A DNA stretch of 64,000 nt from Malacoraja senta (GCA_038087875.1 CM075987.1:16556001-16620000), one strand, 5' to 3'. Counted from the first letter of the stretch, positions 909-63,420 are shown. Notes: generated by a model from the sequence alone, not told the origin. Numbers and translations: made by a program.

Positions 909-1112
909 AAGAAGGAACTGCAGATGCTGGAAAATCGAAGGTAGACAAAAGTGCTGGAGAAACTCAGCGGGTGCAGCAGCATCTATGGAGCAAAGGAAAT
1001 AGGCAAAGTTTCGGTCTGAAGAAGGGTTTCGGCCTGAAACGTTACCTATTTCCTTCGCTCAATAGATGCTGCTGCACCCGCTGAGTTTCTCCAGCACTTT
1101 TGTCTACCTTTA
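909..1112. mobile_element. Short fold-back Penelope-derived element with hammerhead-like core
   Basis: Left and right arms are reverse complements; CTGAAGAAGGG...GAAACGTT from 1016; 16-bp TSD AAAACATTACCTGTTT at 893-908 and 1113-1128. Confidence 0.8.
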
Positions 1113-4100
1113 AAAACATTACCTGTTTTTCGTTCACCATAGAAGCTGTCTGACCTCGTGCATTTCCAGCATTTTCTGTTTTGTTTTATTGCCAGCTGCC
1201 TAGAAGTCAGATTTGTGTCTGGCATTGATGTACAGGATTTGTGCATCATTCTGGTGTAAAATTGATTGTCAGCTATACGGTGTGCAATTTGTTATCCCCC
1301 AGTAATGCACTGAGCATTAGTATAAGCAGCTGAGGAATTACGAGAATCCTCGAGCGAGGGCTTTGACCTGTGAAAACTATGGTAGAGTGGAGCAGATGAT
1401 TGAGGGTTACCAGTGGGACACATCAGTTTTTTGTGAAACTTCAACGTCAGGAAAACAACCCTCCTCTCTTCTCCTCTCACCGCTCTCAACCTTCCCCACC
1501 ATGCGACTGGCCCGAGGTGACATTTGGACAGATATAGAGACAGGAAGGGTTTCCAGGGCTATGTAGCAAATGCGGACAAATGGGACTAGCCCAGAAGACC
1601 AATTTGGTCAGCATGGACAAGGTGGGCTGAAGGGCCCGTTTCTGTTCTGTGTACTGCAAATACATTGCAAACGAGATTAGACAATATATCCTGGATTCAG
1701 GATATTGTATATGATGCATGAGGAGATGAGAGGATCTAATCCATTTGAATATGTATTTGAGGCTTCGATGCACAAAACGAGGTCATGTAATGATAGTTAC
1801 ATTTGCATGGGGCCTCCGTATATCACAACATATTGACGTTCCTGAGGAGCACCTGTGCGCTGCCAGTATGCAAAGACTCACAAGTGAAGGACACAATCTG
1901 GTAATAATCAACACCCGGAGAGGCATGCTATATTTAAACAAGGATTCCAGCATCATTGCTCCCCGTGTACACAGTGGATTTATAAATCTGCAGATACTGT
2001 TGGAATAAAAGTGAAGTTCTGTATTTGTCTTCCTCTTTTCTGTCCCCTTTGTAAATGCCATAATGTATTTGTGCTCTCTTTAGCACTATTTGAGCATCTT
2101 TCCTCGTGAACTGAAATAGTGAGAGTGATGGACGGCATCCAGGAAAGCTGGCAGGCATTGAGCATCAACCTCGGTAAAACTCCCACCTCGGCAAAACGTT
2201 GAGCTGATATTTTGGTGCAGAAATGAGGGCATGCCACACTGCCAGAGGTTTAAGTTTATCATTGTCATACTTGGGGTACAGTGAAAAACATTATTTTCCA
2301 TGCTATCCAATCAAATCAAATAATACTATACATGAATACATAGAAACATAGAAAATAGGTGCAGGAGTAGGCCATTCGGCACTTTGAGCCAGCACCGCCA
2401 TTCAATATGATCATGGCTGATCATCCAAAATCAGGACCCCGTTCCTGCTTTCTCCCCATATCCATTGATTCCGTTATATCTAACTCTCGCTTAATGCAAT
2501 TAATCCAAACTCAAGTACAACAGGTAGATGAACTTGGGGTGAAGGGGAATAAGTTAGGCAGCATCCGTGGAAGGAAAGAGTCCGAAGATGTTTCTGTTCG
2601 GGGCCTTTCTTCAGATTGATTGGTGCTAGTTCTATGTACATTTTGTTTAGGTGAAAGAAAATTGCTAATGTGATCTCTGGTCTTAATGTTCTTGACTAAA
2701 GTCAGATTTTGGTGTGCACAGTCTATCTTTTGGTGGCTGTGAAGAGAAGAGGGAATCAGTCTTGACAATCTGCCCAAATGTTTGTATGGTTGGTGTAATA
2801 AATCTCTACTGTCTGATTGGGATCATTTCATTTGAACATCTGAAAGTAGGATATCCATTCCCCTTTCACACACTTTGATTCCCATGTATTAGCTATATTC
2901 ACTTTAACTCTTAACAGATTAGTCAGTCCTGGTTCTGTTCATAGTTACGGTTTTATTCTATAAACAAAGTGCTGGAGGAACTCAGCAGCTTCTGTTGAGG
3001 AAATGGACAGACAACATCTCGGGTTGGGGTCCTTCTTCAGACTGTTTTATGCTGTTGTGTTTCATTTGATTGGTTGAATGAAGGTGAGGGGATAATCTCC
3101 CCTTTATGGTTTAATTCAAAATTGGAAGATTATAATGTGTTGCCATTGGCACCCGAGAGACGGGAATGAATAAAATGTATTTTGACTGCGCTGAGATGCA
3201 GATCTTGGGTATTTTGCTCAGTTCCACACCCTAGGAAATGATGCTTCTTGGTGATTCTCACTGAACCGTGAGATTAGTTACCTTTACTGAAGAATGAATA
3301 AACTGACAAATTTCCACAGACCTTTTCATTTTGTTGCAGTTTGAGAAAGTAAGGAATTGCAAACCTGACTGACTGTAACCTCCTGCAATAATAATACTCT
3401 CAAAGTTGGCAGCAAACTCAATTCAGACCAGAATTTGGACAGTATTTATTCACAACAATAATTTGTAAAGGTTTGGCACGTTTCCTATTATAAAGCACCA
3501 CAAGCTTCAGGGGGAACATAATCAGACAGAAAATGGTTCCAAGGCACATTTGGACATGTGATTAAAAGCTAGCTCAAGAAGTAGCATTTAAAAGGGAAGG
3601 GAAGTAATGAGGCCAAAAGCATTGGGAGGAAATTCTTGGATTTAGACTGGCCACCAACAGTCAAGTAAGGGAGTGGGCAGTAGGCCAGGGTCAGAGTCAC
3701 AGAGCTATACTGCATGAAAACAGGCGCTTCGGCCCACCTCGTCCACGCCGATCAAATTGGCATATTGTGCTGTCCCATTTGCCTGCATTTGGCCCATTTT
3801 CCTCTAAACCCTTCCTATCCATGTATCCATCCAACTTCCCTGTAATCTAATCATCGAGAGCAATGTACCATATGGGGCCTGTCAAAAAGCTTGCGAAAGT
3901 CCATATGGACAATGCCCAACACCATGCCCTCTTCAATCCTTTTGGTGACCTCTTCAAAGGCTCAGATTTGTGAGACACCACATTTCCCATGCAGAAAGCC
4001 AGAGATTTTGTAGCTTCGGGCTGGGATAAGGGTAGGGTGGAGTGGTGGAATTTGAGCAAGAGGACAAGAATGTTAAACTTTTAGATGTTGATTGAATAGG

Positions 4101-6554: not shown

Positions 6555-6923
6555 TAAAGATGTATGAGGTGAATGGACAATGTAGGGAAATCAAAAACTA
6601 GAAGTCATGGGTTTATGGTGAGAAGGGAAAGATTTAATAGGGGTAACTGTTCAAATCAAGTCAAGTCAAGAGAGTTTATTGTCATGTGTCCCAGATGGGA
6701 CAATGAAATTCTTGCTTGCTGCAGCACAACAGAATATTGTAGGCATAAATACAGAACAGTTCAATGTGTCCATATACCATAGAAAATATATATATACACA
6801 TAAATAAACAGATAAAGTGCAATAGGCTGTTATAGTTCACACAGAAGATGGTGGGTATACTGCCAGAGGAAGTAGTTGAGACGGATACGATAACAATTAA
6901 AAAAAAAAACAGTTGTACAGAAG

Positions 6924-8299
6924 ATTGCACAGAAAGTTGTACAGAAAATTCACTTGGACCATCTCCGCCATCTCCCTACTGTTTCTGGATCTCACCGTCT
7001 CCATCACAGAAAATTCACGTGGACCATCTCCGCCATCTCCCTACTGTTTCTGGATCTCACCATCTCCATCACAGAAAATTCACTTGGACCATCTCCGCCA
7101 TCTCCCTACTGTTTCTGGATCTCACCGTCTCCATCAAAGAAAATTCACTTGGACCATCTCCGCCATCTCCCTACTGTTTCTGGATCTCACCGTCTCCATC
7201 ACAGGAGACAGACGATTGACCAACATCTACTACAAACCTCCTGACTCCCATAGCTATCTAGACTACACTTCTTCCCACCCTGCATCCTATAAAGACTCTA
7301 TCCCCTCCTCACAATTCCTCCGTCTACGCCGCATCTGTGCCCAGGATGAGGTTTTTCAAATTAGATCATCGGAGATGTCCTCATTCTTTAGGAAACGGGG
7401 GTTCCCCTCTTCCATTATAGATGAGGCTCTCACTAGGGTCTCCTCGATATCCCACATCTCCACTCTTGCTCCCCCTCCCCCCCATTTGCAACAAGGACAG
7501 AGTCCCCCTTGTCCTCACCTTCCACCCCATCAGCTGTCGCATACAGCATATAATCCTCCAACATGTTCACCACCTCCAACGGATCCCACTACTGCCCACA
7601 TTTTCCCTTCTCCACCCCTTTCCTCTTTTAGCAGAGACCATTCCCTCCGCAACTCCCTGGTCAACTCGTCCCTTCCCACCCAAACTACCCCCTCCCCAGG
7701 TACTTTCCCCTGCAACCGCAGGAGATGCAACACCTGTCCCTTTACCTCCCCCCTCGACTCCATCCAAGGACCCCCGACAGTCTTTTCAGGTGAGGCAGAG
7801 GTTCACTTGCACCTCCTCCAACCTCATCCACTGTATTTACTGTTCCAGGAGTCAACTGTACATTGGTGCGACCAAGCGCAGGCTCAGCGACCGTTTCGCT
7901 GAACACGTCCGCTCAATCCGCCTTAACCTACTTGAACTCTCGGTTGCTCAGCACTAACTCCCCCACCCATTCCCAATCTGATCTTTCTGCCCTGGGCCTC
8001 CATTGCCAGAGTGAGGCCCAGCACAAGTTGGAGGAACGGCACCTCATATTTTGCTTGGGTAGCTTACCCCCCAGCGGTATGAACATTGACTTCTCTAACT
8101 TCAAATAGCCCTTGCTTTCCCTCTCTCCATCCCCTCCCTCTTCCCAGTTCTCCCACCAGTCTTACTGTCTCCGATTCTGTCTCGCCCACATCCCCAGCAT
8201 CAGTCTAAAGAAAGGGCTCGATCCAAAACGTCACCCATTCCTTCTATCCAGAGATGCTGCCTGTCCCGCTGAGTTACTCCAGCATTTTGTGTCTGATTT
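6924..8299 (+). mobile_element. 5'-truncated Penelope-like retroelement (RT C-terminus, GIY-YIG endonuclease, 3' pLTR), frameshifted
   Basis: KFTWTIS..LFLDLTVSI..TNIYYKPPDSHSYLDYTSSHP..SQFLRLRRIC (PLE RT thumb); CNRRRCNTC linker; SSNLIHCIYCSRSQLYIGATKRRLSDRFAEH (GIY-YIG); 14-bp TSD CAGTTGTACAGAAG at 6910-6923 and 8300-8313. Confidence 0.9.
6941..7200 (+). repeat. Tandem repeat, 4 x 65 bp, at the 5' end of the PLE
   Basis: Unit ACAGAAAATTCACTTGGACCATCTCCGCCATCTCCCTACTGTTTCTGGATCTCACCGTCTCCATC starting at 6941, 7006, 7071, 7136 with few differences. Confidence 0.95.
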
Positions 8300-9244
8300 C
8301 AGTTGTACAGAAGTATGGGCAGGAAAGATTTGGGGAGATATGGGTAATACGGGGGAGTCGGCAAGTCAGCATGAATGGTTCAGCATGGTCTAGTTGGGCT
8401 GAAGAGTCTGTTTCCGTGCGGTATAACTAAAGTAAAACGGTTGACATTGGATCAGTATATATTCTGCCTGTTTTTGTCTGTGCCCTACCACCGCTGTCAA
8501 CTGAAAGAAATATCACCCGAGGTGGATAATGGGTGTCATAACTCCTCTTGGTGAGGACCTAGCATCGGGCGCCAGTCTTAGGAGGGGTGAACCTGCTGCC
8601 GGTTTAGCAAGCTGACTGGGTTGGTTTTGAGAGGGAGGCAGTCTTCAGAAGGGATCCTCCCTGTTATAATGCAATACTCAAACTGTCGTGGTACTGTCTG
8701 CTTGTGGGTGTTTACCAAATTACCAAATTCCAGTCTTTAATTGAAGGTTTGGTACCGTGTGGGCCGGTCCTAGTGATTCCAATTAAAACTGTGTGTGTGT
8801 GTGCAAACCATCTGTGCAGGGTGTTATCTGCCTGAAGAGTTGCAAATTATAAATTGCAGCCGACCTCAACTCTGCACAGAAAACATCTTTGGCTTTTTCA
8901 ATTTGTCTCTTTCTCTGGCAATCTACTGAGTACTGGTTTCAGGAGAATTTTTGAAGGATAGAGCCAAAGGATTTAACAACAATGAAGCATGTTGTTTAGC
9001 CCAATGTACTGGGTAGCGAACTAAAGTTGTGTTTTTGTAAACTGTTTGTGCGAGGTGGAACGCCTTCAGAATTCTTCTCTCCTATACCCCTCTACCGACT
9101 GCATGACCCCAGACTGGACCACCAGTCACCGGTGGACTCATCCTGCTGCTCATTCCTTGTTCCAGGGAGGGAATTGTTCTTCTCTCATTTACTTGACCAA
9201 ATCTTCTCCAAATTTTGAGTCTTTCTGTGAGGCCGTTAGGTTAG

Positions 9245-12000: not shown

Positions 12001-12120
12001 AGGAAAGAACTGTAGATGCTGGTTTAAACACAAAATGCTGAAGTAACTCAGCAGGACAGGCAACATCTCTGGAGAGAAGGAATGGGTGACGTTTTGGGTC
12101 GAGACCCTTCTTCAGACTTA
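12001..12120 (-). mobile_element. Short PLE-derived element with hammerhead-like core
   Basis: Reverse strand CTGAAGAAGGGTCTCGACCCAAAACGTC; 17-bp TSD TTCCAAGCAGGATGTGT at 11984-12000 and 12121-12137. Confidence 0.8.
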
Positions 12121-14544: not shown

Positions 14545-14670
<126 letters not shown>

Positions 14671-21331: not shown

Positions 21332-23814
21332 GTACTGCACATGAATAGCGTCATGTCAGCAGAATGAACGCTGGCTAATTAATGTCCGCAGAACAGTATT
21401 GCACTGGAACAGGCTCTTCGTCCCACAATATCCGTGCCGAACTGAACGCCAAGTGAAACTGATCTCCATTGCCTGCACGTGCTCAATATGCTTCTACTCC
21501 CCACATATCCATGTACCCATCATAAATGCCCCTCTCATGTCTGCCTCCACCACCACCACCACTAGCAGTGTGTTCCAGGCGCTCTGCACCCTCTGTGTAA
21601 ATGTTATTAAATGATCCCGCCCATCTTCTTTAAACTTTGTCTCTCTCGCCTTTAAAGCTTTGCCTTTTTATCCTTGACGTTTACTCCCTGTAGAAAAAAA
21701 GGTACTAATTATCTACCCTATCTATTGCCTCTCATTTCCTCAACTTCCAACGTTCCAGAGAAAACAATCCAAGTTTGCCCGACCTCTCCTGATGGGTGAT
21801 CCTTTCTAAACATGGGAAACATCTTTTGCATTCTCTCCAAACCCTGCACTCCCTTTCTTAGATAGATCCAATTCATGAAACATAGAAACGTAGGTGCCGA
21901 TGTAGGCACCATGATTCAATATGATCATGGCAGAGTCCTTTTATTCTGCCCTATTTCTATGTCTTTTTCTGTCTCAAATATTCATCAACCTTTGCCTTCA
22001 AGGTTCCACTATCCCTAACCACTTCGTAAAACTAAAGATGTTTCCCCTTGCTTCCCACTTTCCTGATGGGTATTTAATACAGATGATTCTCCCATCATCA
22101 CTGACTCCCCAACAAGTACAAATAGTCTTTCCCTCACCCCAGTGGGAATGGTGCGGGAATTCCACATCTCTCTGGATATCATTGCTTCCTCAACCACCAT
22201 CGACTCCATTAGTTACTATGTTACTGTTTATGAGTGCTAGTTCCAAGTTCTTTGGCTGACATTTTCCCACTTCAATTTTAGCTAATCCTTCAATGTTAAT
22301 TTTTGCAACAATCCTATGCTTTGTCTTTTCCCACTGCTGCTCTTCTGTGCAAAGAAATACCTGGGGTTCTCCCAACTGTACTTCCACCACATAAACCTTT
22401 ACACAGAACAGCAGCCGGCCCTTCAGCCCACAATGTCTGAGCTGAACATGATACCAGGATAAAATAATTTCCTCTGCTTGCATGTAATCCATCTCCCTCC
22501 ATTCCCTGCCTGTCCACGTGCCTATCTAAATGCCTCTTAAACATGACTATTGTATCTGCCCCCACCACCACCACCCCACCGCACATTTCAGGCACCTACC
22601 ACTCTCTGTGTAGGGGGGGGGGGAAACATCTCACTTAAACTTTGTACCTCTCACTGCAGAGCTCTGCCCGCTAGTTTTTTACATTTGCACCCTGGGAGAA
22701 AAAGGCTTACTGATGCATAGCAGCTATTGAGGTTATTCCTAAACTAGTTTTGGCCTCTTATGTATTGCATCTTCTTATTGCTCAAACATAGACACCTGGG
22801 GCTTCACTTGCTTATGCTGTTAGACTTGCAAGTTCCTCCTTAAACCTCTCCACTTTCCTCCTTTTAAAACACTCGTTTAAACCTAGATCTTGGTCGTTTG
22901 AACACGCCTCCTTTTTGCTTAATGTCAGTTTTAATCTGCAATGTTTCACACAGAATTTAGAATTGTTGCTTATGTCTGTGATTTTAAACTCTTGAACAAG
23001 TGCCTGTAATGTTTGGCTGTGCTAAAGACACGAAGCAAATGCGTGTTATTGTAAATAAATGCGTCAGGCAGCCAACCTTGGCCAGACTCTGGTTCAGTTT
23101 TCTCATGATATGAAGAGGATTGGGCGTTGCCTTGAAACATTGCAACAAAATGATAAGATGCTGTATATATGTGTGAATATTTTTGTTGTTGGTGCCAACT
23201 AGAGTAATTGTTGGACTACACGAGATAATTCTCTGTAAGCACATGTTACTGGGAAATTTAGTCACAAACACATTTGAAGAGGAAACCTGAAATTTGTTGG
23301 GGAAAAAAAGATACAAAGTGTTGGAGTAACATAGCAGGTCAGGCAGCATCTTTGGAGAACATCAATAGGTGACATAATGGATCGGGACCCTTCTTTGGAC
23401 TGAATGGGTCTGAAGAAGGGTGCCGACCCAAAACAACACCTATCCATGTTCTCCAGTGATGCTGTCTGACCTGCTGAATTACTCCAGCACTTTGTGACCT
23501 TATATTGTAAACCAGCATCTGCAGTTCCTTGTTTCTCCTCTCTGAAATTTGTTAAGTTTAGGTTCATTATTGTCACATGTACTGAGGTACAGTGAAATAC
23601 TTTGTTTTGCAGGCTATGCAATCAGGTTAGATGACACTATACATGTAACATGAAATGATGACACAATAAAGTCGAGCTCAAGTACAATAGGTGGAGCAAA
23701 GGGGAAGATACAGGGTGCAGAATATAGTTCTCTGCATTGTAGCGCATCAGTTCCAGAGACAAAGTCCAATATCCACAAGAGGTGCATGGGACAGTACCTG
23801 TAGCCAGTAAACCT

Positions 23815-24370: not shown

Positions 24371-24399
24371 GGCGGATGCTGTTGCAATTCCAAGCCGTG

Positions 24400-37897: not shown

Positions 37898-38324
37898 AAT
37901 GAAATTCTTTTACTTGCTGCAGCTTAACAGGCCCACTCATAGATAAATATATAACCAATAATAAAATAAAGTACAACACTAGGTAACCATGACAGCTTTC
38001 AACGGTGAGATGTTACAACTAATGATAACTATTCCTGGAGTTCTAGTAGTATTTCACAGCCTCAGTAATCCCAAAGTACTATTCTCCACCCACGAAACCG
38101 ATTACAGCGAAATCCTGACCGCACAAACATCAGGCTCAGTCTTTAGATCATGGCAAGGCTTGCACACTATAATGGGCCACAAGGGAAAGATGTGCCATAT
38201 CGCTGGCAACAATAGGTCCCTCCCCAATGGACTCAATGCATTCCACACCCACTCTGAATAGAAGATCGGTGATAGAATGCCAGCCACACTGCCAGTCGCG
38301 GGAGCGCCTGTACCAATGGTGATT

Positions 38325-38550
38325 GAAGACAGACACCAAATGCTGGAGTAACTCAGCGGGGCAGATAGCATCTCTGGATAGAAGGGATGGGTGACGTTTT
38401 GGGTCGAGACCTTTCTTCTGACTGAAGAAGGGTCTCGACCTGAAACGTCACCCATTCCTTTTCTCCAGAGATGCTGCCTGTCCTGCTGAGTTACTATAGC
38501 ATTTTGGGTCTATCTTCAGTGTAAACCAGCATCTACAGTTCCTTCCTACA
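38325..38550. mobile_element. Fold-back PLE-derived element
   Basis: Inverted arms meeting at ~38420 with hammerhead-like cores on both strands; ACCAATGGT repeated at both flanks. Confidence 0.8.
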
Positions 38551-40212: not shown

Positions 40213-40441
40213 ATAGACACAAAATGCTGGAGTAACTCAACGGGACAAGCAGCATCACTGGAGCGAAGGAACGGCTGACATTTCGGGTCGAGTCCCTTCT
40301 TCAGGCAGACTGACGAAGGGTCTCGACCAGAAACGTCACCCATTCCTTCTCTCCAGAGACGCTGCCTGTCCCGCTGAGTTACTCCAGCATTTTGTGTCTA
40401 CCTTCGGTGTAAACCAGCATCTACAGTTCTTTCTTACAATA
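40213..40441. mobile_element. Fold-back PLE-derived element
   Basis: Inverted arms; CTGACGAAGGGTCTCGACCAGAAACGTC at 40310; 14-bp TSD ACCATTTCATGAAT at 40199-40212 and 40442-40455. Confidence 0.85.
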
Positions 40442-41272: not shown

Positions 41273-43509
41273 CGGTGGTAGTTCTTGGATAAGCTTTATT
41301 CTAGGAATCATATATTAAACTGGGAAATATGATATACTTTTACACTTGGAATGTACCCTGGGCAAGGCTGTAAAATCGAGTTAATCAGACCAAGCTGAAG
41401 CTTACATTTACAGGCAAATATACCCAATTTCCTGGAGATTCAATGGTCGATTCCAACAGCAGATACTGTGCCAGGTGCTCCCACCTCCAATCCATATTCC
41501 CACACTCCAGTGATTCCAGAGTACAAATCAAAGGATGACGCAGCCAGCACTAAAATTACTCAGATAGCTGGGACATGGAATACCAGACAATGCTTCCCGA
41601 TAGAGATCAAATAGATGGACTTCACCACAAGTGCCATTTGCCAGACGGCAATGAAAGCAAGAAGGAACCGATAAAGACTGCCAAGCCTTTTTTTTCCTGG
41701 GGGGACAGCACCTCATATTCAAATTGGGAAAGGGCAATGATTTGTCCAATTTTAAGTCATGCCCCCCCTATCGCGGGACTTTCTGTTACTCCACACCCCC
41801 TCCCCCATCCCAGTTCACACGCATTTCTCTCCCTATTCCGTCCCTCTTTTCCACCCCCAGCCCCAATCTCCTTCCTCCTATATCTGTCCCTCTGGCTTTA
41901 CGTTTCACTTTTCTAATCTGCCATGCTTTTGTCTCCTTTTCAGTTCTGGCCTTTATCACGTACTCCACCCATCTGCCAGTCAAATCCCACCTATCAGTTG
42001 CCAACTGTGTCCTGCCCCCAACACTTTTCCAGCATCCTCCCACCCCCCAACCCGCTCTATCAGTCTGTTGAAGGGTCCGGACACAAAACGATGCCTATCC
42101 ATTCCCTCTGCAGACACTGCCTGACCCAGCTGAGTTCCTTTGTATCCTTCAGACCACAAAGCCTCAAGGACTATCACCTTGCGACCATTGCTGGAAAGCA
42201 GGAGACGAGTTGGTAATTGGTGCAACATTTTGCCTATTTCTTTTCTATTTCTGTCTACATTTCTACAAAACCTGAGTGAATCTCACAATTCCAGCTTCCC
42301 AGAGCCCAGTGCTGTAAGTTCATTGTTGCGAAGAAGCTGCATTGCTGAATGTGCTGTGTCTCCATTCAGAAATTAAACCGAGCCTCAGTCTATTCTCCTC
42401 CAGACACTACAGTTACCAAAGCAATATTTTGAAGAGTAAAAATCAAGTTTCCCCCATAAATCTTGACAAATATTTATCCCTCAGTTTCAACTAAGAGCAG
42501 ACAATCTGGCTTTCACTCTGCCTTCTTCGGATCTGCTATGCACTAGTTGTCTGCCAAAATTTTACTTCACAAGATTAACTTCTGTAAAAACTTCTGTATC
42601 TGGACATCCTGATGTTCTGAAATGCTCTTTATTAAAGCAAGTTGCATTTGCACTTAATAACAATTTGTTTTGTTCTTTTAAACCTGCCTCAATGTCTCCT
42701 AAATCATGGTTCTTGCTTCAAGTCATTTGTTTAATGCACTTAGATTGTGGTGGCACCGGGTGCTATAGCTCTGTACCTTGATACAGATACATGATGGACA
42801 AGGTCTTGTGTTACTCAACAATGACTGACTTGTTGGACCAGAGAGGGAAATAATCCTCTTGATCCCCAAGACTTATTGCTATTCCAGTGCACGTACGCAA
42901 GTGCATGGCAAGTTGGTGGAGAATTGCATTTGATAAACTTCAAGGTCGAATAACCGCCTGATGAAGTTCAAGTTGGGTAGCATCCAGGCAGGGAATGTGC
43001 ACCACATAGGGAATGGTGAAGGGGGCATTAAGGAAGTAGGGAGACACGTATCAATTGACATGGAGCCAGGCATTGTACAAATAAGAGAGCTCCTGGTGTA
43101 TTGTAATGACTGTCTTATTTGGACATGTTAAAGGTGTTCAAAAACCCTTCAAACTGGGGCATTCAAGAAAGAGGGACCATAAATAGGGAGAGAACAAATT
43201 GCACGAGTCTCCCCTCAGCTTCTGTATAAAGTGTTGGAGTTGCTGGTGATCAATTGAAGAATTCAAAACTGCGACTGATGTAATTGATTGACAGAGACTG
43301 AGTCTGAAGAAAGGTCCCGACCTGAAATATCATCCGTCCTTTTTTCTCCTCAGATGCTGCCTGACCTGCTGAGTTTCTCCAGCATTTTGTGTTTTACTCG
43401 AGATTCCAGAATGTGTCGTTTCTTGGGTCTCCACAGAATTTTGTTGGTAAATGAATCGAGGTGAATTCTACTTCTTGTGGGATCCAAAGCTGAGTGTCAT
43501 AAATGTATA

Positions 43510-44003
43510 AGAAAGAACTGCAGATGCTGGAAAATCGAAGGTAGACAAAAAATGCTGGAGAAACTCAGCGGGTGAGGCAGCATCTGAGGAGAAAAAAACG
43601 GGCGGATGATATTTCAGGTCGGGACCCTTCTTCAGACTCAGTCTCTGTCAATCAATTACTCAGCACTTCAACTCCCCCTCCCATTCCGAATCCGACCTTT
43701 CTGTCCTCGGCCTCCTCCATGGCCAGAGTGAGGACCACCATAAATTGGAGGAGCAGCACCTCATATTTCGCTTGGGCAGTTTGCACCCCAGCAGTATGAA
43801 CATTGACTTCTTTAATTTCAGGTAGTCCTTACTTTCTCCTCCCCTTCTCAGCTCTCCCTCAGCCCACTGGCTCCTCTTCTTCCTTTCTTCTTCTTCCTGC
43901 CCCCACCCTCACATCAGTCTGAAGAAGGGTTTTGGCCCGAAACGTTGCCTATTTCCTTCGCTCCATAGATGCTGCCTCACCCGCTGAGTTTCTCCAGCAT
44001 TTT
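43510..44003 (+). mobile_element. PLE insertion: inverted 5' pLTR arm, captured flank, GIY-YIG tail, pLTR
   Basis: 15-bp TSD TGTCATAAATGTATA at 43495-43509 and 44004-44018; GIY-YIG C-terminal remnant 43660-43825; hammerhead-like core at 43919. Confidence 0.88.
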
Positions 44004-54250: not shown

Positions 54251-56229
54251 AGACCTCAGGTTTCAGGTCGCGACCTGAAACCTGATGTTTCAGGTCACGA
54301 CCCTGCATCAGGACTGACAGCATAGAAGGAGGATGGCCAGTATGAAGGGAAGGTGAGTGGGGGGGGGGGGGTGGCGGCTAGAATGGGAGGGAGGGACTTG
54401 TAGAGGATAGGTTGACCTAGGTAGAATGGGGATGATAGACTGATGGGAAGGAAGGGGAAATGGGCGGGGTGGTGTTGGAAATGAGGTTGACGGTGATAGG
54501 TGGAAACGGACAAGAAAAGGAAAGGGTGTCAGTGTGTGGAAGGTGAAGGTAGGGTACGTGAAAGGAACTGCCAGAAGAAGTGATAGAGGCAGGTACAATG
54601 ACGTAATTTAAGAGACATTTGGACAGGTACGTGAATAGGACGTTTTAGAGGGAAATGGGCCAAATGCAGGGAAATGGTTCTAGCTCAGATGGGCAGCTTG
54701 GTCGGCGCAGCCAAGTTGGGCCAAAGTGCCAATTTCCGTGCTGTATAAATCAATGACTTTCTTCTGGAAGGACAAAGAAGAATATCATCTTGACAGTGAT
54801 TTTTTTCTGTCATGAATGGTCTAGCCGAGCATCTGGCCGACTTCCCCGGGGGGATAGTGATTGTCTCGGTCGTGTTCCTCCAGTGCAATGTAAACACCAT
54901 TGACTCCATCTACACTACGCTGCGTCAGAAAAGCAGGCAACAAAATCAAAGCTAGGATGCTGACCGATTCATCTCTCCCCCATTGTGGATATTGGGCTTT
55001 GTCTATGGAACTGTTGTGCTACAATGCTGAGAACTATATTCGGCACTCTGTATCTTCCTCAACCTAATGTACGTGTTTGAGTTGATTGTATTTATGTATA
55101 GTATTATCTGAACTGTTTGGATAGCATGCACAACAAAACTGTTCACTGTACCTCAGTACACCTGATAATAAACCTAAAGTATGGATATCAGCAGTACATC
55201 TCCATCGCCGACCATGAAATCTCCACCTGACAAAAGCTAACTTCTCCAGACAGAGCTCTTTGAAGGTCTTCTCTGAACCAATGAGTCAGAGATATGGGCC
55301 AAAGGTTGGCAAATGGGACTATGTTAGATGGGGCATTTTGATTGGCATGGACGAGTTGGGCCGGAGGGCCTGTTTCCATGCTGTATGACTCTGACAGGTT
55401 TGATGAGAAGCTAACATCCAGTTGTTAATTAATTTCAAATACAGGGCATTTTTTGGATTGGAAACTCAAAGGTAAAAAAGAAGAGTCCCGACCCGAAACA
55501 TCACCTCTCCATGTTCTCCAGAAAAGCTACCTCATCTGCTGAGTTATTCCAGCATTTTGTTTTTTTTGGTAAAACTATAACTGCAGGCACCTGGAGACTA
55601 TGGTAGTATAGATAACCCATGACTTAAAAATAGATAATGCCTGGAATAGACTGTGATTCAGCAAGTTGCTTTTAATCATGAGTGGTTTGGATGCTTCAGC
55701 ACTATGGAGGCCAAACACTGAATGGTCCTCCCAGCCAGGAACCAAGCACCAAAGTAACCATCAAGGGCAGAAACACGATAGACGGAAAAAGCTGGAGTAA
55801 CTCAGCGGGACAGGGAGCATCGCTGGAGAGAAGGAATGGGTGACGTTTCAGGTCGAGACCATTCTTCAGACTGGTTAGGGATAAGGGTAAACGGTATAGA
55901 CGGTGATGTGGAGAGATAAAGAACAATGAACGATGATAAAGGAAAAGTAACGACGCTAATAACAGCCTGTTTGAAGGGTGAAAATTTGATTTATCTGTTT
56001 CTTCAAGTCAAGTCGTCAAGTCAAGTTTATTCGTCACATACACATACGAGATGATCAGTTTCTTATCGAGATCTTCGGTTTAAACCAGCATCTGCAGTTC
56101 CTTCTTACACGAGGGCGGAAACACAGTCAATATTCATAACAGAGAATGCTATTTTGTACGTATTTGCCACGTATTTTGTATAATGGCCACATTTCACTCA
56201 GGTGTTCACCTGCTGCTCCCTTGACCAAA

Positions 56230-56325: not shown

Positions 56326-57234
56326 GTGAGTTCAGGCTTTCCCGTTGGAGGCGGCCACGGCCGGGACGGGATGGGATGGGATGGCGCGGCGGTGTGTGGA
56401 GCTGCGAGCCGGGGTTTCTCCAGGTGCCGGTCACGTTGTGTCTTCAAATGTAACCTCACGCTGGCAGCGAAGCCCGGGACAGCGCGACCGGCCCTCGCAC
56501 AGTTAAACTCTCCTCACAATGTTGTTCTTGTACCGGCCTCTTGTACTCGTCTGGCAGCTCCTTCCATAGACCCACCGCCCTCTGAGTTGGACTCCCCCCT
56601 CCTCCCCAGGTTCTTATTAAATCTTGTCCTTCTCTTTAAACCCGTGTCCCCTGGTTAATGGAAGCTGTCAGATTGTTGTTGTGCTGGGATAGGTGTGTGA
56701 TGGAGAGGGTAGGAAGGAGCTGCAGATGCTGGTTTAAACCGAAGACAGACACACAAAGCTGGAGTAACTCAGTGGGTCAGACAGCATCTCTGGAGAAAAG
56801 GAATAGGTAACGTTTCGGGTCAGACCCCTGAAACATCACCTATTCCTATTATCCAGAGATGCTGTGTGACCCGCTGAGTTACTCCAGCTTTTTGTGTCGA
56901 TTTTAGTTGATGGAGAAGGTGGGTTTGAAAAACCGTGGGCTGGGGGCAAAAATTGAGTAGCGTTTAGTGTTGGTAGTAGAATTATACTATGTACTTCATA
57001 GTCAAGCAAACCAACAGTCGGTTTTCCGCTAGAATGTACCGTCTGCATCGATGGTTGCATTAATCCAATCCTTGACACCTCTTGTCGCTCAGCCCCAAAG
57101 CTCTGTATAGTATTTGTTTCCTCACATTCTGTCATTGGGTCAAGACAGTCGAGAATTATTAATTGTCATATGTACTGAAAACCGGACAAAACGGTTCAAT
57201 ATGTAGAAACAAAGAACCAGCTCTATAATCTTTG

Positions 57235-57440
57235 CAAAGAACTGCAGTTGCTAGTTTATACCAAAGATGGCACAAAGTGCTGGAGTAACTCAGTGGGTCA
57301 GGCAGCAGCTCTGGAGAAAAAGGATGGGTGACATTTCCGGTTGGGACCCTTCTTCAGCCCAACCCGAAATGTGACCCATCCTTTTTCTCAGGAGATGCTG
57401 CCTGATCCGCTGAGTTACTCCAGCACTTTGTGTCCATCTT
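57235..57440. mobile_element. Fold-back PLE-derived element in URM1 intron 1 (similar at 56710-56900)
   Basis: AAAGATGG-CACAAAGTGCTGGAGTAACTCAG... / ...CTGAGTTACTCCAGCACTTTGTGTCCATCTTT inverted arms. Confidence 0.8.
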
Positions 57441-59196: not shown

Positions 59197-62100
59197 GTGA
59201 GTGTAATTACATTAAAAAATAGAATTCTCTTCTAAATAACCAAATTAAACGTGGGCAATTGTGCTGATTTTGGGCGTATCATCTTGGGCGTGGGGTAGGG
59301 GAAGCTGCAGGGACAAGAATACAAATGTATAGAAATGTTCAATTGGAGAAAATTAACTGGTGCATCAAAGGCATCAGGGTCTGAAGAAGGGTCCCGACCC
59401 GAAACGTCATCTATCCATTTCCTGTCTTTTGTTCAAATTTCCAGCATCTGCAGTTCCTTGTGGCTACATCAATGCAATCCATAGCTCATGATGAGCTAGA
59501 CACTTCTTGCCCCTCCCTTACTTACTGCCAACGATCTCCTGACAGGGATAAAATCCCACCACCAATCAATACAGAAGAGAACTCTCTGAACATTTATTCT
59601 CTAACTCATTCGTCTACCTGAAACAAATCCAGAAGTTCATGCTTTTGTCTGTTCAAACCATTCATGCCTTCTTTTAATGCCATCTTTCATCATGTCCGGA
59701 GATGGTCAAGCTGCCTTGTGAAAACATCATGGAGATTCTGCAGCTACAAGGAACTACAGATGGAATCTTGAACAAAACACACAAAGTGCTGGAGTAACTC
59801 AACAGGTCAGGCAGCATTTGTGCATGGAATGGATAAACAATGTTTCAAATTGGGACCTTTCTGTAGACGTGAAGAAGGATCCCGACCCACCTTTACATTA
59901 CATCCATAGATACTGCCTGCCCCCCCCCCCTTGTTTTTTTCCATAGTTTTAAACCATGTTGCCTAATATGTGTCTGATGAAAATCCCAACCCAAAACATA
60001 TCCATGTTCTCTAGAGATGCTGCCTAGCCGCTGAGTTCCTCCAGCAATTTATATTTTGCTCAAGATTTAAGCATCGAGTTCCTTGTGTTTCTGTTATGCG
60101 GGCTATTGTTGTGAACACTGAATAAAACATTGCACTATTATTGGGTGGGTTTTCACAAGCACTTGGGGGAAATCATATCACATGTCTTGGGGGAAATCTA
60201 TAAAATTATGGGAATTATAGGTTTTTGTTTTTCAGGGTCAAAGAAAGGGCACCAAGGTAAAAGGGGCAAAATTTAAACCAGATGTGCGGGGAAAGTTTAT
60301 TTACACAGAGTGGTGGGCACCGGGAATGTACTGCCCTTCCCTTACTGCCAATGACGATGACAATGAAATTTCAGCACCAATCAATGCAGAAAAAAACACT
60401 CTGGAAACATAGAGGTGGTGGTGGAGGCAAAGACGATAGCGGCATTTAAGAGGTTTTTAGATAAGCGCATGGATATGCAGAGAATGAGGGATATAGATCA
60501 GGTGCAGGCAGATGAGGTTTGTTTTACCTTGCATCATGTTGGGCACAGGCGTGGGCTGAAGGGCCTGTCCTATGCTGCACTATCTTATGATTCTGCCAGT
60601 CTTGCAAAAAGAAGCTGAAAATTGCTGATGGTGCATTAACACCCAACATTGCTTCTGTAAAGATCTTTTGGGAATAGTTTTACAATGTTAATCCAAGCCT
60701 TGGTTTAGTAGTGAGTTGTGGTTGCCACAGACTTAACTGCTGCTGTAATTGGGTTCTTGTCATTTTGCTTTGGTAAGTAAATGCTCAGTAGTTCTGCAGC
60801 TGTTTGGATTGGTAAAGTTTTGGGAGGCAAATTAGTCATTCCGGAATTAATTTGGAAATTATGACAGTAGTTTGCATTTCACAATGCAAAGCGGGATAAT
60901 GAATTGGAGAAGCCACATTAGTTCTGCTATCTGGAGGTCATGTTTGAAAGTAGTTTCTTTAGGATTCCTTGTTTTAATGTTTCTCATTGGAAAACACACA
61001 TAGATAATTGAAAATTAATCCAGCGAGGGAAGTTTGCAGTGCACTGAGCAAAGACTGATCAAATCCTTGCTATATCCCATCCCGAATACAGTAATTCACT
61101 AAAACAAATTGTTAATATTCTTGAATGAGTTTGTTGCAGGAAGGTTATGAGATGTGATAACCAAGAGAGGGTTTTATCACAATATTTCTGTGGGTCCTTT
61201 TGTTCTTTTTTTGTCCTTGTTAGCTATGGTTCAGTGGTGGAACACTTGACTCTGAATCCGAAGTTAGGTGGATTGGTCTCGTCTTTCAGAGAAAGCCTTC
61301 GACTAGGACCAGGCCATCACTCTCACCTCCCACTGCCGTACCAGCTCATCGCATGGAACCAGAAAAGCTGCAAACTCTCTGCGGATCAGACAGCTTCTGT
61401 GGACAGAGAAGCAGCTAGCAGGCCAGATCAAAGACCCTTTGTTAGTACCCTGACCCTTCTGACAAAGAGTCTTTGGCTTGAAACATAAACTTTCTTTCTC
61501 TTTGCACAGATGCATTCTGATGTGATGTGTTTTCAGCGTTTTCTGTTTTTATTTGATTTTTTTAGATCTTCAGCTCCTGAAATATCCAGTGGCACTATTT
61601 TCAAGAGGAGCAAAGGAAAACTCCTCAATGATCATTCCTTACTCCTGAACTAACACCATTGAAACTGTCATCTTATGCTATCTCAAAGCTGTTACATGGA
61701 AATTGCTGTGTTCAATTTGGCTGCCATTACTTTAGATAGGTGACCATACTTCCAATGGATGTTATTGGCTGCAACACACTTTAGGATGCCTTAAGGTCAC
61801 ATAAGGTGTAAAGTGTCTCGCTTTCTCATTCTCTCGGCCATCCAGTAATCTTGAAGTGCCTGAGCATTTACCATGAAACAATTTCCATGAGGTATAACAC
61901 AAAGTGCTGGAGGAACTCAGCGAAGTCAGGCAGCATCTGTGGACGGAGTGGACAGACGACGCTTTGGGTCAAGACACTTCTTCAGACCCAAAAAGACCTG
62001 TCCATTCCCTCCACAGATTCTGCCTGACCCAATGAGTTTCTCCAGCACATTTGTTTTTTTTGCTCAAAATTCCAGCATCTACAGTTTCTTGCGTCTGTTG

Positions 62101-63420
62101 GTTCCATTCTTAGCTATCCGGTCCTAGCCAGGGAGGGTGACTCTGCAGTGGCTTTTTTCACCCCATTCCTTCACTATTACCTCAAGTGTCTCTCCAGGAG
62201 CTGGGTTGTTTTTTGCACCTCTTGGGTTCTGCTGAAAATTCCAGCATCTGTAGTTCCCTGTGATTTCTATGAGGTATCGTTGGCGTCAGTTCTCTCAGCG
62301 CAGGTATGTTACAAACCTGGAGACATTGAATGTTCAAATGTGCAGTTTCCAGCACAGTTCAGTGGCAGTGCAACTCTCGTGGCTGTTATTTCCCTGACAC
62401 TTTCCCATCTATTTTCAGGTTTAGTCGGTTGCGTTTCGAGACTTGCCACAGTGGCATTTGAACTCCCAACCTCTGTCTCTCTGGCCCACAACACTATCAT
62501 TTCCAATGTGTACTGAGCATTCACAGCAGTCAGCCTGTGTACTGCGGTGCCATAAGCTCCTGACGCTTGACTTTGCATTCATGTAACCATTGTAACCATT
62601 GCCCCCCGCAGAGCCCAAATGTGTGAAAGTGTTCTGCTTTACTACTCCAAGATAATCTTTGATTTCCACTCCTGCCCTCCCCCCAAACAGGTTATGCCCA
62701 GCTTTGCTCTTTAAAATGCTCTATTTAGTGCGTGAATGGGTATCTTATGATCCCATTGTTGGGCCATTTTGAAACAAATGTTCTGTGCTCTTTCTATTTA
62801 CTTAATTATTCTTAATCCTGAATTAAGTTCAACATTTGTTTTCTCTTGTAATATCCAGACATTGCAGATGGGGAGTGATACCAAACATGGGCACAAAATG
62901 CAAAATGCTGGAGTAACTCAGTGGGTCAGGTAGAACATGGATAGGTGATGTTTTGGGTTGCAACCCTGCTTCAGACTTGTTTTCTCTTGCCTGCTGCACT
63001 GTTTGCAAGGTGAAAGCTTATCAACGGCCTCCCCTTGCTTCTGTTGGCCCACCATCCTAATTTAAAATCAGATTTCTTAACTCTCTTTGACGTTTTGTGC
63101 TCTGTTATTTATAGTACCTTCTTTAAAAAAGTTGTTATGGCTGGTGAATAAAATTGTCACCACTTTTCCCTTTTACCCACTTGCTCTTCCATGTGCAGAA
63201 TGCTCTCTCTCTCCCCCGGGTCAGGTAAGGTACGGACCAGTGGCTGTTGCAGTGCTAGGCAACTGTGGCATTGTTCCAACAATGCTGCCTTGAACTGTGA
63301 CAATTGGCCTGCTGAGAAGCTCTCAATAAAGAGGGGAAGAAAAGGATTCTCTGCCACGCCACAGCTTTGCATGGGCCAGGAATTTCCAAATGTTAAATCG
63401 AAACACTACGACTGGGATGC

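What the first reader, a model, noticed from the sequence alone, without database searches (positions are those of the whole stretch)
909..62980. Very dense family of short, non-coding Penelope-derived insertions carrying a minimal hammerhead ribozyme core (retrozyme-like system)
Seen: a ~110-230 bp module (CTGAAGAAGGGTCTCGACCCGAAACGTCACCCATTCC...GATGCTGCC...GCTGAGTTACTCCAGCA...) recurs in more than 30 remnants on both strands. It is the same sequence as the 3' pLTR of the GIY-YIG-coding PLE fragments at 6924-8299, 37535-37897 and 43510-44003. Stand-alone copies have their own 14-17 bp TSDs (893/1113, 11984/12121, 40199/40442), so they inserted as units. The motif folds as CUGAnGA-A-stem II-GAAA-CG-UC. 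Loop bases vary (CUCG, CCCG, GCCG, UUUG) while the GGGU/ACCC or GGGU/GCCC stem is kept. Known: PLEs encode minimal type I hammerheads whose palindromic stem III (here ACGU) requires dimerisation to cleave. Inference: a very high-copy non-autonomous or extremely truncated PLE family has seeded ribozyme-like motifs about every 2 kb, including introns of two housekeeping genes. Caveat: stem I is only 2-6 bp and the core has an extra A.
Basis: partly seen in the sequence, partly recalled or inferred. Interest (0 to 1): 0.75.

Follow-up and report, generated by a model that had tools for sequence, protein, structure and literature searches.

The report
Truncated Penelope retroelement ends with hammerhead motif
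The window is littered with about 100-base tail-end copies of a Penelope-like jumping gene, each carrying the small hammerhead ribozyme motif already described for such elements, so the catch is real but of a known kind and most copies are decayed.

Summary
An ~85-135 bp module recurs 39 times by blastn and 53 times by nhmmer in 64 kb. It continues without a break from three GIY-YIG-coding fragments. The three cited target-site duplications are exact.

It is the pLTR core of an endonuclease-positive Penelope-like element (PLE) of an elasmobranch-type genome. A tandem copy elsewhere in the genome has an open 1250-aa RT/GIY-YIG frame and a 3997-bp period.

The units carry the published PLE insertion signatures:
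- two alternative 3' ends about 35 nt apart (the "tail");
- head-to-head inverted 5'-truncated arms, with the tail on one side only (11 of 14 pairs);
- TSDs of variable length.

The motif fits the PLE minimal hammerhead of Cervera and De la Pena 2014. The "extra A" is a hallmark of that class, not a defect. Helix I is only 2 bp, and no Rfam hammerhead model matches. The core boxes survive in 26 of 80 copies and the full motif in 8 of 80; G12 is lost in 34 of 80, a change at a CpG.

There are no tandem arrays, so "retrozyme-like" is not supported. This is a new member of a known kind. The scan has noted the same thing on other shark-type DNA.

One feature is not explained by random truncation: 5' ends pile up 2-7 nt upstream of CUGA.

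The parts
6901..8108 (+). C-terminal fragment of the PLE ORF, frameshifted. It holds the CX4CXXC linker and the GIY-YIG region and ends at a stop at 8106-8108. A 65-bp x 4.1 tandem repeat lies inside it at 6941-7204.
   Evidence: 48% identity to aa 1030-1198 of the L051 ORF, E 2e-39
8109..8311 (+). 3'UTR plus module (hammerhead region 8205-8232) with no tail. The core is decayed (CTAAAGA; G12 is A).
37520..37920 (+). PLE copy truncated inside the GIY-YIG domain (ORF end 37520-37705), then the pyrimidine-rich 3'UTR and the module. A complete minimal hammerhead lies at 37805-37832. No tail.
43508..43658 (-). Short inverted arm: module plus tail plus 23 nt of upstream sequence shared with the older copy at 43296-43424.
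43659..44003 (+). ORF-bearing arm of the same insertion unit. A complete hammerhead motif lies at 43919-43946. No tail. TSD at 43494-43508 / 44003-44017.
909..1112 (.). Head-to-head inverted pair. The left arm is antisense with tail, the right arm sense without tail. 16-bp TSD at 893-908 / 1113-1128. It is inserted into an older copy (849-892, 1113-1174).
12001..12120 (-). Solo unit with tail. Its 5' end lies about 4 nt upstream of CTGA. 17-bp TSD at 11984-12000 / 12121-12137. G12 is A.
38329..38551 (.). Head-to-head inverted pair with the tail on the right arm only. The flanks share ccaatggt.at.
40213..40441 (.). Head-to-head inverted pair with the tail on the right arm only (read by eye). 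14-bp TSD at 40199-40212 / 40442-40455. It folds as one hairpin of -141.3 kcal/mol.
23294..23538 (.). Head-to-head inverted pair with a 9-11 nt spacer and the tail on the right arm.
56710..56900 (.). Head-to-head inverted pair with the tail on the left arm only.
57235..57435 (.). Head-to-head inverted pair with the tail on the left arm only.
61898..62151 (.). Head-to-head inverted pair with the tail on the right arm only.
59378..59475 (+). Copy with a complete hammerhead motif at 59381-59408. It is the only window copy with a 4-bp helix I.
43296..43424 (+). Older solo copy with a diverged tail.
413..548 (.). Old inverted pair (arms 413-495 antisense, 497-548 sense).
35765..35939 (.). Old inverted pair (arms 35798-35880 antisense, 35882-35939 sense).
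37241..37375 (.). Old inverted pair with both arms truncated inside the hammerhead region.
59746..60086 (.). Inverted pair 59783-59866 / 59870-59923, followed by a further sense copy at 59974-60050. All are decayed.
61363..61541 (.). Very diverged inverted pair.
55786..55886 (-). Solo unit without tail. The CUGAAGA box is kept, but G10.1 reads T (GAATGG), so it fails the full descriptor. Other solo or fragmentary copies lie at 2552-2615(-), 2966-3046(-), 5874-5956(-), 12786-12866(+), 14856-14934(+), 16620-16754(+), 17851-17976, 19804-19859(+), 42047-42140(+), 44894-44969(-), 52693-52808(-), 53027-53076(-), 55478-55561(+) and 62861-62978(-).

Best explanation
These are by-products of a recently active, endonuclease-positive Penelope-like element (PLE) family of an elasmobranch-type genome.

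The master element, seen at locus L051, is a tandem unit of about 4.0 kb with one ORF of about 1250 aa (reverse transcriptase, a CX4CXXC linker, a C-terminal GIY-YIG nuclease). Between the stop codon and the next ATG lies a short pLTR made of:
- a pyrimidine-rich stretch of about 120 nt ending in ...tatcagt;
- the minimal hammerhead motif: CUGAAGA, one extra A, a 4-bp helix II with a tetraloop, GAAA, the palindromic CG step, then UC or UU;
- about 60 nt up to a first 3' end (about +90 to +100 from CUGA);
- a 33-nt 'tail';
- a second 3' end (about +125 to +135);
- the ATG, at about +164.

Shown here: genomic copies end at one or the other of these two 3' ends. Most stop 2-7 nt upstream of CUGA, giving units of about 90-135 bp with their own TSDs of 9-17 bp (the exact matches found). 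About one in eight runs on into the ORF. About a quarter of the units carry a second, inverted arm, so that both 3' ends face outward, and the tail sits on one arm only.

Inferred, from the anole PLE studied in vitro (PMC11167929): the element's protein nicks both DNA strands and starts reverse transcription at two adjacent internal sites of its RNA. That gives the optional tail and the inverted arms. The copies lack whatever lies 3' of the start site, so they are dead on arrival.

After insertion the copies decay neutrally. The commonest losses are transitions at CpG dinucleotides (G12 and the CG step).

If the hammerhead cleaves at all, it would do so in multi-unit transcripts of the master copies, as a dimer or with protein help. 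In the dispersed copies it is inert.
For: PLE identity:
- Longer relatives of the ORF fragment carry RVT_1 plus GIY-YIG. P0004 scores 36.4 bits on RVT_1 and P0001 scores 23.2 bits on GIY-YIG, both above their cut-offs.
- 51 genomic matches to P0004 were listed at about 50% identity over about 735 aa, 49 of them without an internal stop, out of 66,580 first-look candidates.
- L051 shows the module twice, 3997 bp apart, around an open 1250-aa frame.
- The window fragments match its C-terminus.

Insertion signatures, as described in passages read from PMC8557442 (inverted 5'-truncated copy; a 30-40 bp tail often at one end only):
- Among 107 hits in 264 kb, 3' ends fall in two groups: 33 at +85 to +99 and 48 at +115 to +139.
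- The tail is contiguous with the module in the master copy.
- Of 14 head-to-head pairs, 11 have the tail on one arm only by the automatic rule. By eye it is 13 of 14.
- Exact TSDs of 9 nt or more flank 8 of 53 solo copies, against 1 of 52 in a control shifted by 150 nt.
- Five TSDs were read by eye.

Hammerhead:
- All four emergent features listed in PMC4209133 are present.
- Core positions outside CpG are 93-96% conserved over 80 copies, against 46-81% just downstream.
- Helix II is paired in 85.5% of cells. The covariation score is 0.230 against 0.176 in shuffles (0 of 500 reached it) and 0.05-0.12 in slid controls.

Boundaries in other data: contigs of other public runs break at the same 5' boundary and the same two 3' ends (table 7).

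Abundance: 97 hits in 20 arbitrarily chosen 10-kb regions.
Against: - No Rfam hammerhead family matches, either at gathering scores over the whole window or at E up to 10 on the best copy.
- Helix I has only 2 supported pairs. The next two positions pair in 24-26% of copies.
- Nearest-neighbour folding does not favour the hammerhead fold. The monomer MFE of -19 kcal/mol has z = 0.12 and a different pairing. The dimer MFE is -20.9 kcal/mol, against -12.7 for the hammerhead-compatible dimer.
- The covariation signal is small. All four helix II pairs show some double changes, but in few copies (1-5 of 79 each). Shared descent of subfamilies could produce the excess over shuffles.
- On the genome's own copies Pfam scores are below cut-off: RVT_1 26.4 against 29.6 bits, GIY-YIG 19.2-20.9 against 22.6 bits. 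The three window ORF fragments gave no Pfam hit for GIY-YIG or RT.
- Cleavage, transcription and the reverse-transcription start sites were not observed for this element. They are carried over from another PLE.
- Random 5' truncation does not explain why 5' ends cluster just upstream of CUGA.
Confidence: 0.85

Rival explanations
1. The short modules are a separate non-autonomous family (mini-PLE, SINE-like or retrozyme-like). It is transcribed on its own or within host introns and is mobilised again and again in trans by the PLE protein.
For: - The 5' end is discrete. About 47 of 107 hits start between -10 and +4 of CUGA, 14 reach the ORF, and only about 3 start between -155 and -46.
- TSDs abut 2-5 nt upstream of CUGA in 5 of the 8 solo copies that have an exact TSD.
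- Copy number is very high.
- The inverted arm at 43508-43658 carries 23 nt of the upstream flank of the neighbouring copy at 43296-43424. An already inserted copy or its transcript may have served as template.
- A 2026 preprint argues that animal retrozymes derive from PLE pLTRs (10.64898/2026.07.22.740005; abstract, Results part 1 and passages read).
Against: - There are no head-to-tail arrays of the module in the window, so there is no route to a ribozyme-excised circle.
- The module sequence, including the tail, is contiguous in the ORF-bearing master.
- The subfamilies seen as short copies also occur attached to ORF ends.
- In the anole PLE the RNA needed for insertion extends 3' of the reverse-transcription start site (PMC11167929). 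Copies would then lack it.
- No pol III promoter boxes were seen by eye (not tested by a tool).
Confidence: 0.15
2. The conserved CUGAAGA...GAAA block is homologous to PLE hammerheads but is no longer, or never was, a working ribozyme in this family. It is kept for another reason, such as a core promoter or initiator, or a protein-binding site at the RNA 5' end.
For: - Helix I is 2 bp, and no thermodynamic preference for the fold was found.
- The tcagtct just upstream resembles an initiator element (consensus recalled, not tested), and copy 5' ends lie there.
- In the anole PLE, hammerhead mutants did not affect insertion in vitro, and no RNA-seq reads ended at the cleavage site (PMC11167929).
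- PLE clades without hammerheads proliferate well (PMC8557442).
- 5' ends do not pile up at the predicted cleavage site: 4 of 150 hits start at model positions 28-32.
Against: - Every core position, the extra nucleotide, the G10.1-C11.1 pair and the palindromic step are kept together in the master copies and across subfamilies.
- The D. virilis PLE hammerhead also has a 2-bp helix I (PMC4209133).
- The anole hammerhead does cleave when the protein is added (PMC11167929).
Confidence: 0.3
3. The units are fold-back DNA transposons or MITEs that merely resemble a PLE end.
For: Many units are near-perfect inverted repeats with TSDs. One example is 40213-40441, a hairpin of -141.3 kcal/mol with z = -17.6.
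Against: - TSD length varies from 9 to 17 bp.
- The arms are unequal, with the tail on one side only.
- Solo one-armed units with their own TSDs are common.
- The arm sequence continues from the PLE ORF end.
Confidence: 0.02

Closest known systems
Minimal hammerheads (min-HHR) in the pLTRs of metazoan Penelope-like elements (Cervera and De la Pena 2014, PMC4209133, whole text read). Dimer cleavage by Lunse, Weinberg and Breaker 2017 was seen only as a citation and a review passage in PMC6765202; the paper itself is not held.
   Same: - Type I layout with CUGANGA and GAAA boxes.
- One unpaired nucleotide between A9 and 10.1.
- A G10.1-C11.1 pair.
- No real helix III, but a palindromic 15.2/16.2 step that implies dimers.
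- Location in the pLTR.
- Most genomic motifs are single or lie on opposite strands close together, as truncated PLE copies.
   Different: - Helix II is 4 bp here, against 7-8 bp in the Schistosoma families.
- Helix I is 2 bp, against 4-5 bp in most families but 2 bp in D. virilis.
- The host is an elasmobranch-type genome. The paper lists bony fishes, coelacanth, Xenopus and reptiles.
- Abundance looks far higher. About 5 complete motifs per 200 kb would scale to tens of thousands, against about 4,000 (coelacanth) and 9,000 (Xenopus) reported.
Canonical EN+ PLE insertion units: pLTR, adjacent inverted 5'-truncated copy, one-sided 30-40 bp tail (Craig et al. 2021, PMC8557442, passages read; Frangieh et al. 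2024, PMC11167929, main text read).
   Same: - Tandem master copies.
- Heavy 5' truncation.
- An inverted arm at the 5' end.
- A tail at one end only.
- Two alternative 3' ends, matching two reverse-transcription start sites.
- Insertion into older copies of the same family (909-1112).
   Different: - Here both 3' ends lie about 30-75 nt upstream of the ATG. In the anole element they lie 111-118 nt inside the ORF.
- The great majority of units stop within a few nucleotides of the hammerhead's 5' edge. I did not find that stated in the texts I read.
Non-LTR retrozymes of animals (PMC7229834, search listing and abstract only; Li, Clavereau and Pollet 2026 preprint 10.64898/2026.07.22.740005, abstract, Results part 1 and passages read).
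   Same: Short, non-coding, PLE-related sequence with a type I hammerhead. Monomeric derivatives are dispersed through genomes, introns included.
   Different: Retrozymes are head-to-tail arrays whose units are cut out by two hammerheads and circularised. The window has no such array.
Rfam hammerhead families (Hammerhead_1 and relatives).
   Same: The catalytic core boxes.
   Different: No match at the gathering score or at E up to 10. My inference is that those models expect a closed helix III and a longer helix I.

Membership tests
Endonuclease-positive Penelope-like element (canonical, C-terminal GIY-YIG) | A single ORF with a reverse transcriptase followed by a C-terminal GIY-YIG nuclease | tested here: met
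   The L051 ORF has RVT_1 at aa 734-903 (26.4 bits) and GIY-YIG at aa 1154-1187 (19.2 bits). The order is right but both are below Pfam cut-offs. It is 50% identical over about 735 aa to P0004, which passes RVT_1. P0001, 51% identical to a genome copy of the ORF end, passes GIY-YIG.
Endonuclease-positive Penelope-like element (canonical, C-terminal GIY-YIG) | Tandem or partial-tandem copies forming pseudo-LTRs | tested here: met
   Two ORF matches lie 3997 bp apart on one contig. The module occurs at positions 410 and 4407 of L051 in element orientation.
Endonuclease-positive Penelope-like element (canonical, C-terminal GIY-YIG) | An inverted 5'-truncated copy adjacent to the 5' end | tested here: met
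   14 head-to-head pairs in 264 kb. In the window, 13 adjacent minus/plus hit pairs plus the unit at 43508-44003.
Endonuclease-positive Penelope-like element (canonical, C-terminal GIY-YIG) | An optional 30-40 bp tail, often at one end only | tested here: met
   The 3' ends are bimodal. The 33-nt tail is contiguous in the master copy. 11 of 14 pairs have one tail by the automatic rule, and 13 of 14 by eye.
Endonuclease-positive Penelope-like element (canonical, C-terminal GIY-YIG) | Clade placement by RT phylogeny (Penelope/Poseidon, Neptune or Nematis) | not tested
   Only the CX4CXXC linker between RT and EN was seen, in the subject line of the alignment. PMC8557442 ties this motif to Neptune and Nematis. 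No tree was built.
PLE minimal hammerhead (min-HHR, PMC4209133) | Core boxes CUGANGA, GAAA and U16.1-H17 in type I order | tested here: met
   Present in the master L051 and in 26 of 80 genomic copies. The full descriptor is met by 3 copies in the window, against 0 in 50 shuffles, and by 5 in the 200 kb of sampled regions.
PLE minimal hammerhead (min-HHR, PMC4209133) | One nucleotide between A9 and 10.1 | tested here: met
   It is A in 77 of 80 copies.
PLE minimal hammerhead (min-HHR, PMC4209133) | A conserved G10.1-C11.1 pair closing helix II | tested here: met
   G-C in 49, G-U in 10, A-U in 5 and unpaired in 14 of the 78 copies with letters on both sides, out of 79 distinct rows. C11.1 sits in a CpG.
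PLE minimal hammerhead (min-HHR, PMC4209133) | Palindromic 15.2/16.2 in place of a closed helix III | tested here: met
   CG in 40 of 80 copies. CA or TG, the products of CpG decay, in 28 of 80.
PLE minimal hammerhead (min-HHR, PMC4209133) | Helix I of about 4-5 bp | tested here: not met
   Only 2 pairs are supported, at 85% and 71% of copies. The next two pair in 24-26%. 7 of the 8 complete motifs have a 2-bp helix I. The D. virilis variant in the same paper also has 2 bp.
PLE minimal hammerhead (min-HHR, PMC4209133) | Self-cleavage 3' of H17, as a dimer or with protein help | not testable with these tools
   No RNA run is on record. The contigs that were laid cannot show RNA ends.
Rfam hammerhead families | A score at or above the family's gathering threshold | tested here: not met
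   0 matches in the window. No hammerhead family appears among the 8 matches at E up to 10 on 37760-37910.
Non-LTR retrozyme | Head-to-tail tandem repeats, each unit with a hammerhead | tested here: not met
   Tandem Repeats Finder gives 3 arrays in the window, none of them the module. The reference-based search found no same-strand neighbours within 300 bp in the window. One same-strand neighbour about 100 bp away (59870 and 59974) is decayed and irregular.
Non-LTR retrozyme | Circular RNA product | not testable with these tools
   No RNA data.
MITE / fold-back DNA transposon | A fixed TSD length and symmetric terminal inverted repeats | tested here: not met
   TSDs run from 9 to 17 bp. The arms are unequal and the tail is one-sided.

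The most novel reading that the evidence does not exclude
The ~100-bp units are not random truncations but full-length run-off copies of the first ~100-135 nt of the element's RNA.

On this reading, transcripts start a few nucleotides upstream of CUGA, at the initiator-like tcagtct. The reverse transcriptase binds the start sites nearest the RNA 5' end as readily as those in a downstream pLTR, and runs off after copying only the hammerhead leader. The hammerhead would then be the very 5' end of the PLE RNA. That would explain the two-peaked distribution of 5' ends and a copy number near 10^6.

It also leaves room for tailed copies transcribed inside host introns to be used again as templates, as the flank-carrying arm at 43508-43658 hints. 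Intronic inverted pairs would be a ready source of long hairpin RNA against the element.
Probability: 0.25. Interest if true: 0.5.

Novelty: new member of a known kind. Interest (0 to 1): 0.3.

Why it matters
It adds a very abundant elasmobranch-type family to the known association of minimal hammerheads with Penelope-like elements. Module hits cover about 3% of the sampled bases, which scales to an order of 10^5-10^6 copies (20 arbitrarily chosen regions, a rough figure).

The genomic record matches the in vitro findings for the anole PLE: two reverse-transcription start sites and priming on both strands.

For annotation, these motifs should be masked as PLE ends and not called as ribozyme genes, because most are decayed or locked in hairpins.

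The one point that could interest a specialist is the sharp 5' boundary just upstream of the hammerhead. It suggests a defined RNA 5' end and could be tested directly.

Tried and rejected
- Rfam: nothing at gathering scores on the whole window. At E up to 10 on 37760-37910 there were only chance lncRNA and miRNA hits.
- Pfam on the three window ORF fragments: no domain. Genome copies gave only sub-threshold GIY-YIG.
- RNA evidence: no RNA holder is listed for the L051 junction. The four runs that were laid are contigs and cannot show RNA starts, ends or levels. Their depth figures were not used as copy numbers.
- Cleavage-derived 5' ends: I looked for a pile-up of copy 5' ends at the base after GUC. 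Only 4 of 150 hits start at model positions 28-32.
- Thermodynamic folding of the monomer and the dimer did not return the hammerhead fold. This is not decisive for a motif that depends on tertiary contacts or protein.
Smaller requests were then used, so the sample of young copies is 20, of which L036 and L037 are the same sequence.
- Host genes: Pfam on 40 of the 212 open frames of 75 aa or more found only LINE domains. The 'two housekeeping genes' remain unchecked.
- Lunse et al. 2017 could not be read.
- Dfam and Repbase cannot be searched here, so I cannot say whether this family is catalogued.
- A search for Penelope + elasmobranch + transposable listed 4 papers, none on hammerheads by their titles and the start of their abstracts.
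- The idea that the pyrimidine tract plus cag upstream of CUGA is a 3' splice site, as in D. virilis Penelope, was considered. It is not supported by the short copies: beyond about 7 nt upstream they carry target flank, not a shared exon.

Full report
**What is in the window**

The 28-mer at 37805-37832 recurs 8 times at up to 3 mismatches, against none in 100 shuffles. blastn with 37800-37900 finds 39 hits on both strands. Three rounds of nhmmer find 53 hits. Tandem Repeats Finder finds no array of the module.

The three cited TSDs are exact:
- 893-908 / 1113-1128 (16 bp)
- 11984-12000 / 12121-12137 (17 bp)
- 40199-40212 / 40442-40455 (14 bp)

I read two more: 43494-43508 / 44003-44017, and ccaatggt.at around 38329-38551.

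**What the modules belong to**

Upstream of three copies the sequence codes for the end of a protein with a CX4CXXC motif and a GIY-YIG-like block. Pfam does not call these three fragments. Better-preserved genome copies give GIY-YIG only below the cut-off.

Longer relatives found in the protein collection come from sharks and rays. They carry RVT_1 followed by GIY-YIG, above cut-off in P0004 (RVT_1) and P0001 (GIY-YIG).

The window's own 1.94-Gb assembly holds many copies. A search with P0004 listed 51 matches at about 50% identity over about 735 aa. 49 of them have no stop, and open frames reach 1302 aa.

One contig has two copies 3997 bp apart. I fetched that unit as L051. In element orientation it reads:
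- ORF end;
- about 120 nt of pyrimidine-rich 3'UTR ending ...ccctatcagt;
- CTGAAGAAGGGTTTCGGCCCGAAACGTT;
- about 60 nt;
- the 33-nt stretch ccttcgattttccagcatctgcagttccttctt;
- the ATG of the next 1250-aa frame, about 164 nt after CTGA.

The window's coding fragments align to the C-terminus of that frame (48% identity, E 2e-39; 76% identity, E 4e-29). The DNA at 8021-8311, 37614-37920 and 43734-44043 aligns to its ORF end, UTR and module without a break. The module is therefore the pLTR core of an endonuclease-positive Penelope-like element.

**Architecture of the units**

An antisense arm is followed by a sense arm. Both 3' ends face outward, and the CTGA ends meet in the middle. In the window, 13 adjacent minus/plus hit pairs plus the unit at 43508-44003 have this form. 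The 53 arms therefore make about 40 insertion units.

I added 20 arbitrarily chosen 10-kb regions of the genome as a sample. With the L051 junction as query, the 264 kb gave 107 hits.

The 3' ends fall into two groups: 33 at +85 to +99 from CUGA and 48 at +115 to +139. These are copies without and with the 33-nt tail.

Of 14 head-to-head pairs, 11 have the tail on exactly one arm by an automatic rule. One pair was scored TT and one as undecided; both are one-tailed when read by eye. One pair has no tail. Among unpaired hits the tail is present in 43 and absent in 33. If the arms were independent, about half the pairs would be discordant. By my own arithmetic from those counts, 11 or more of 14 has a probability of roughly 0.02.

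Craig et al. 2021 describe exactly this picture for PLEs: heavy 5' truncation, an adjacent inverted 5'-truncated copy, and a 30-40 bp tail often at one end only (PMC8557442, passages read). It also fits the anole PLE protein in vitro. That protein cuts and extends both strands and starts reverse transcription at two adjacent internal sites (PMC11167929, main text read).

**The hammerhead motif**

The motif reads CUGAAGA, one A, GGGU-loop-RCCC, GAAA, CG, UC or UU. Cervera and De la Pena list four features that emerged from their PLE min-HHR searches (PMC4209133):
- families of variants;
- the G10.1-C11.1 pair;
- a palindromic 15.2-16.2 step.

All are present here.

Over those 80 copies (30 from the window, 50 from the sampled regions):
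- Helix II is paired in 85.5% of cells.
- The covariation score is 0.230, against 0.176 in shuffles (0 of 500 reached it) and 0.05-0.12 in slid controls.
- The signal is small and could come from shared descent.
- Helix I has only two supported pairs.
- Core positions outside CpG are 93-96% conserved, while positions just downstream are 46-81%.

Evidence against a working ribozyme:
- No Rfam hammerhead family matches.
- Nearest-neighbour folding does not prefer the hammerhead fold.
- In inverted pairs the motif is locked in a hairpin of -141.3 kcal/mol.

Most copies are dead:
- G12 is A in 34 of 80 (a change at the C11.1-G12 CpG).
- The CG step reads CA or TG in 28 of 80.
- The core boxes survive in 26 of 80.
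- A full descriptor is met by 3 copies in the window (37805, 43919, 59381; none in 50 shuffles) and by 5 in the 200 kb sample.

**The 5' ends**

Of the 107 hits, 14 reach back to -155 or further, into the 3'UTR and ORF. About 47 start between -10 and +4 of CUGA, and only about 3 start between -155 and -46.

This is not an alignment artefact. Among 53 solo copies, 8 have an exact flanking repeat of 9 nt or more, against 1 of 52 in a shifted control. In 5 of those 8 the repeat ends 2-5 nt upstream of CUGA. Young copies show the same.

Contigs of other public runs break at -2/-3 and at the two 3' ends (table 7). Contigs show boundaries of the repeat, not RNA ends.

Copy 5' ends do not pile up at the predicted cleavage site (4 of 150 hits). 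The templates that were copied were therefore uncleaved, as in the anole system.

Random truncation does not explain the sharp boundary. My preferred but untested reading is that the element's RNA begins there. The sequence tcagtct resembles an initiator (consensus recalled). In D. virilis Penelope the transcription start lies shortly upstream of the hammerhead region (PMC2377424, passages read; PMC4209133). Short units would then be run-off copies made when reverse transcription starts at the site nearest the RNA 5' end.

**Abundance**

The 20 sampled regions hold 97 module hits, 3.4% of their bases, with 0 to 24 per region. The window holds 53 in 64 kb. Scaled to 1.94 Gb, this is of the order of 10^5-10^6 arms and tens of thousands of complete motifs. 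These are rough figures from a small sample that was not randomised.

**Comparison and verdict**

- It works like, and passes the tests for, canonical EN+ PLE insertion units and the PLE min-HHR class. The exception is the short helix I, which the D. virilis variant shares.
- It fails the Rfam hammerhead thresholds.
- It fails the defining tandem layout of retrozymes.
- It is not a MITE.

The kind has been in print since 2014. The scan's own earlier notes on other shark-type DNA reached the same reading (e1-7788964, e1-7788970, e1-7788743), which I checked independently here.

I could not search Dfam or Repbase, read Lunse et al. 2017, see the supplements of the 2026 preprint, or obtain RNA data.

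Noticed in passing
window 43280-43658: The antisense arm at 43508-43658 and the older sense copy at 43296-43424 share 23 nt of sequence upstream of CTGA (gtaattgattgacagagactgag) and private variants in the hammerhead region. They differ in their 3' halves and tails. This mosaic suggests a template switch to the neighbouring copy or its transcript, or repair synthesis, during insertion.
   Followed up: partly
window 849-1174: The inverted pair at 909-1112 sits inside an older copy of the same family (849-892 and 1113-1174). Its TSD (aaaacattacctgttt) looks like the old copy's decayed GAAACGTCACC region. This is an insertion of a PLE end into a PLE end.
   Followed up: partly
window 6941-7204: A 65-bp unit repeated 4.1 times (96% matches) lies inside the open frame of the PLE fragment.
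   Followed up: no
window 49312-52296 (+) and 53540-54193 (-): A LINE-type element with a 615-aa open frame carrying Exo_endo_phos domains, followed by an RVT_1 frame. A second RVT_1 fragment lies on the other strand.
   Followed up: partly
window 54283-54330: A different palindromic, hammerhead-like stretch (CCTGATGCAGGGTCGTGACCTGAAACATCAGG followed by its inverted copy). C replaces A9, so it is probably another decayed PLE family.
   Followed up: no
window 35941-36109: A GC-rich 89-bp unit repeated 1.9 times lies next to an old inverted pair.
   Followed up: no
L051 (element orientation 290-410) and window 37706-37804: The 3'UTR upstream of the hammerhead is a pyrimidine tract of about 100 nt ending in cag. 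It looks like a 3' splice site. In D. virilis Penelope an intron ends at the 5' edge of helix I.
   Followed up: partly
L036 and L037 (two different contigs of G000): Identical sequence including the flanks: a duplicated region, or an assembly duplicate.
   Followed up: no
L028 (G000:C10:11000001-11010000): 24 module hits in 10 kb, five times the sample mean: a local cluster of PLE ends.
   Followed up: no
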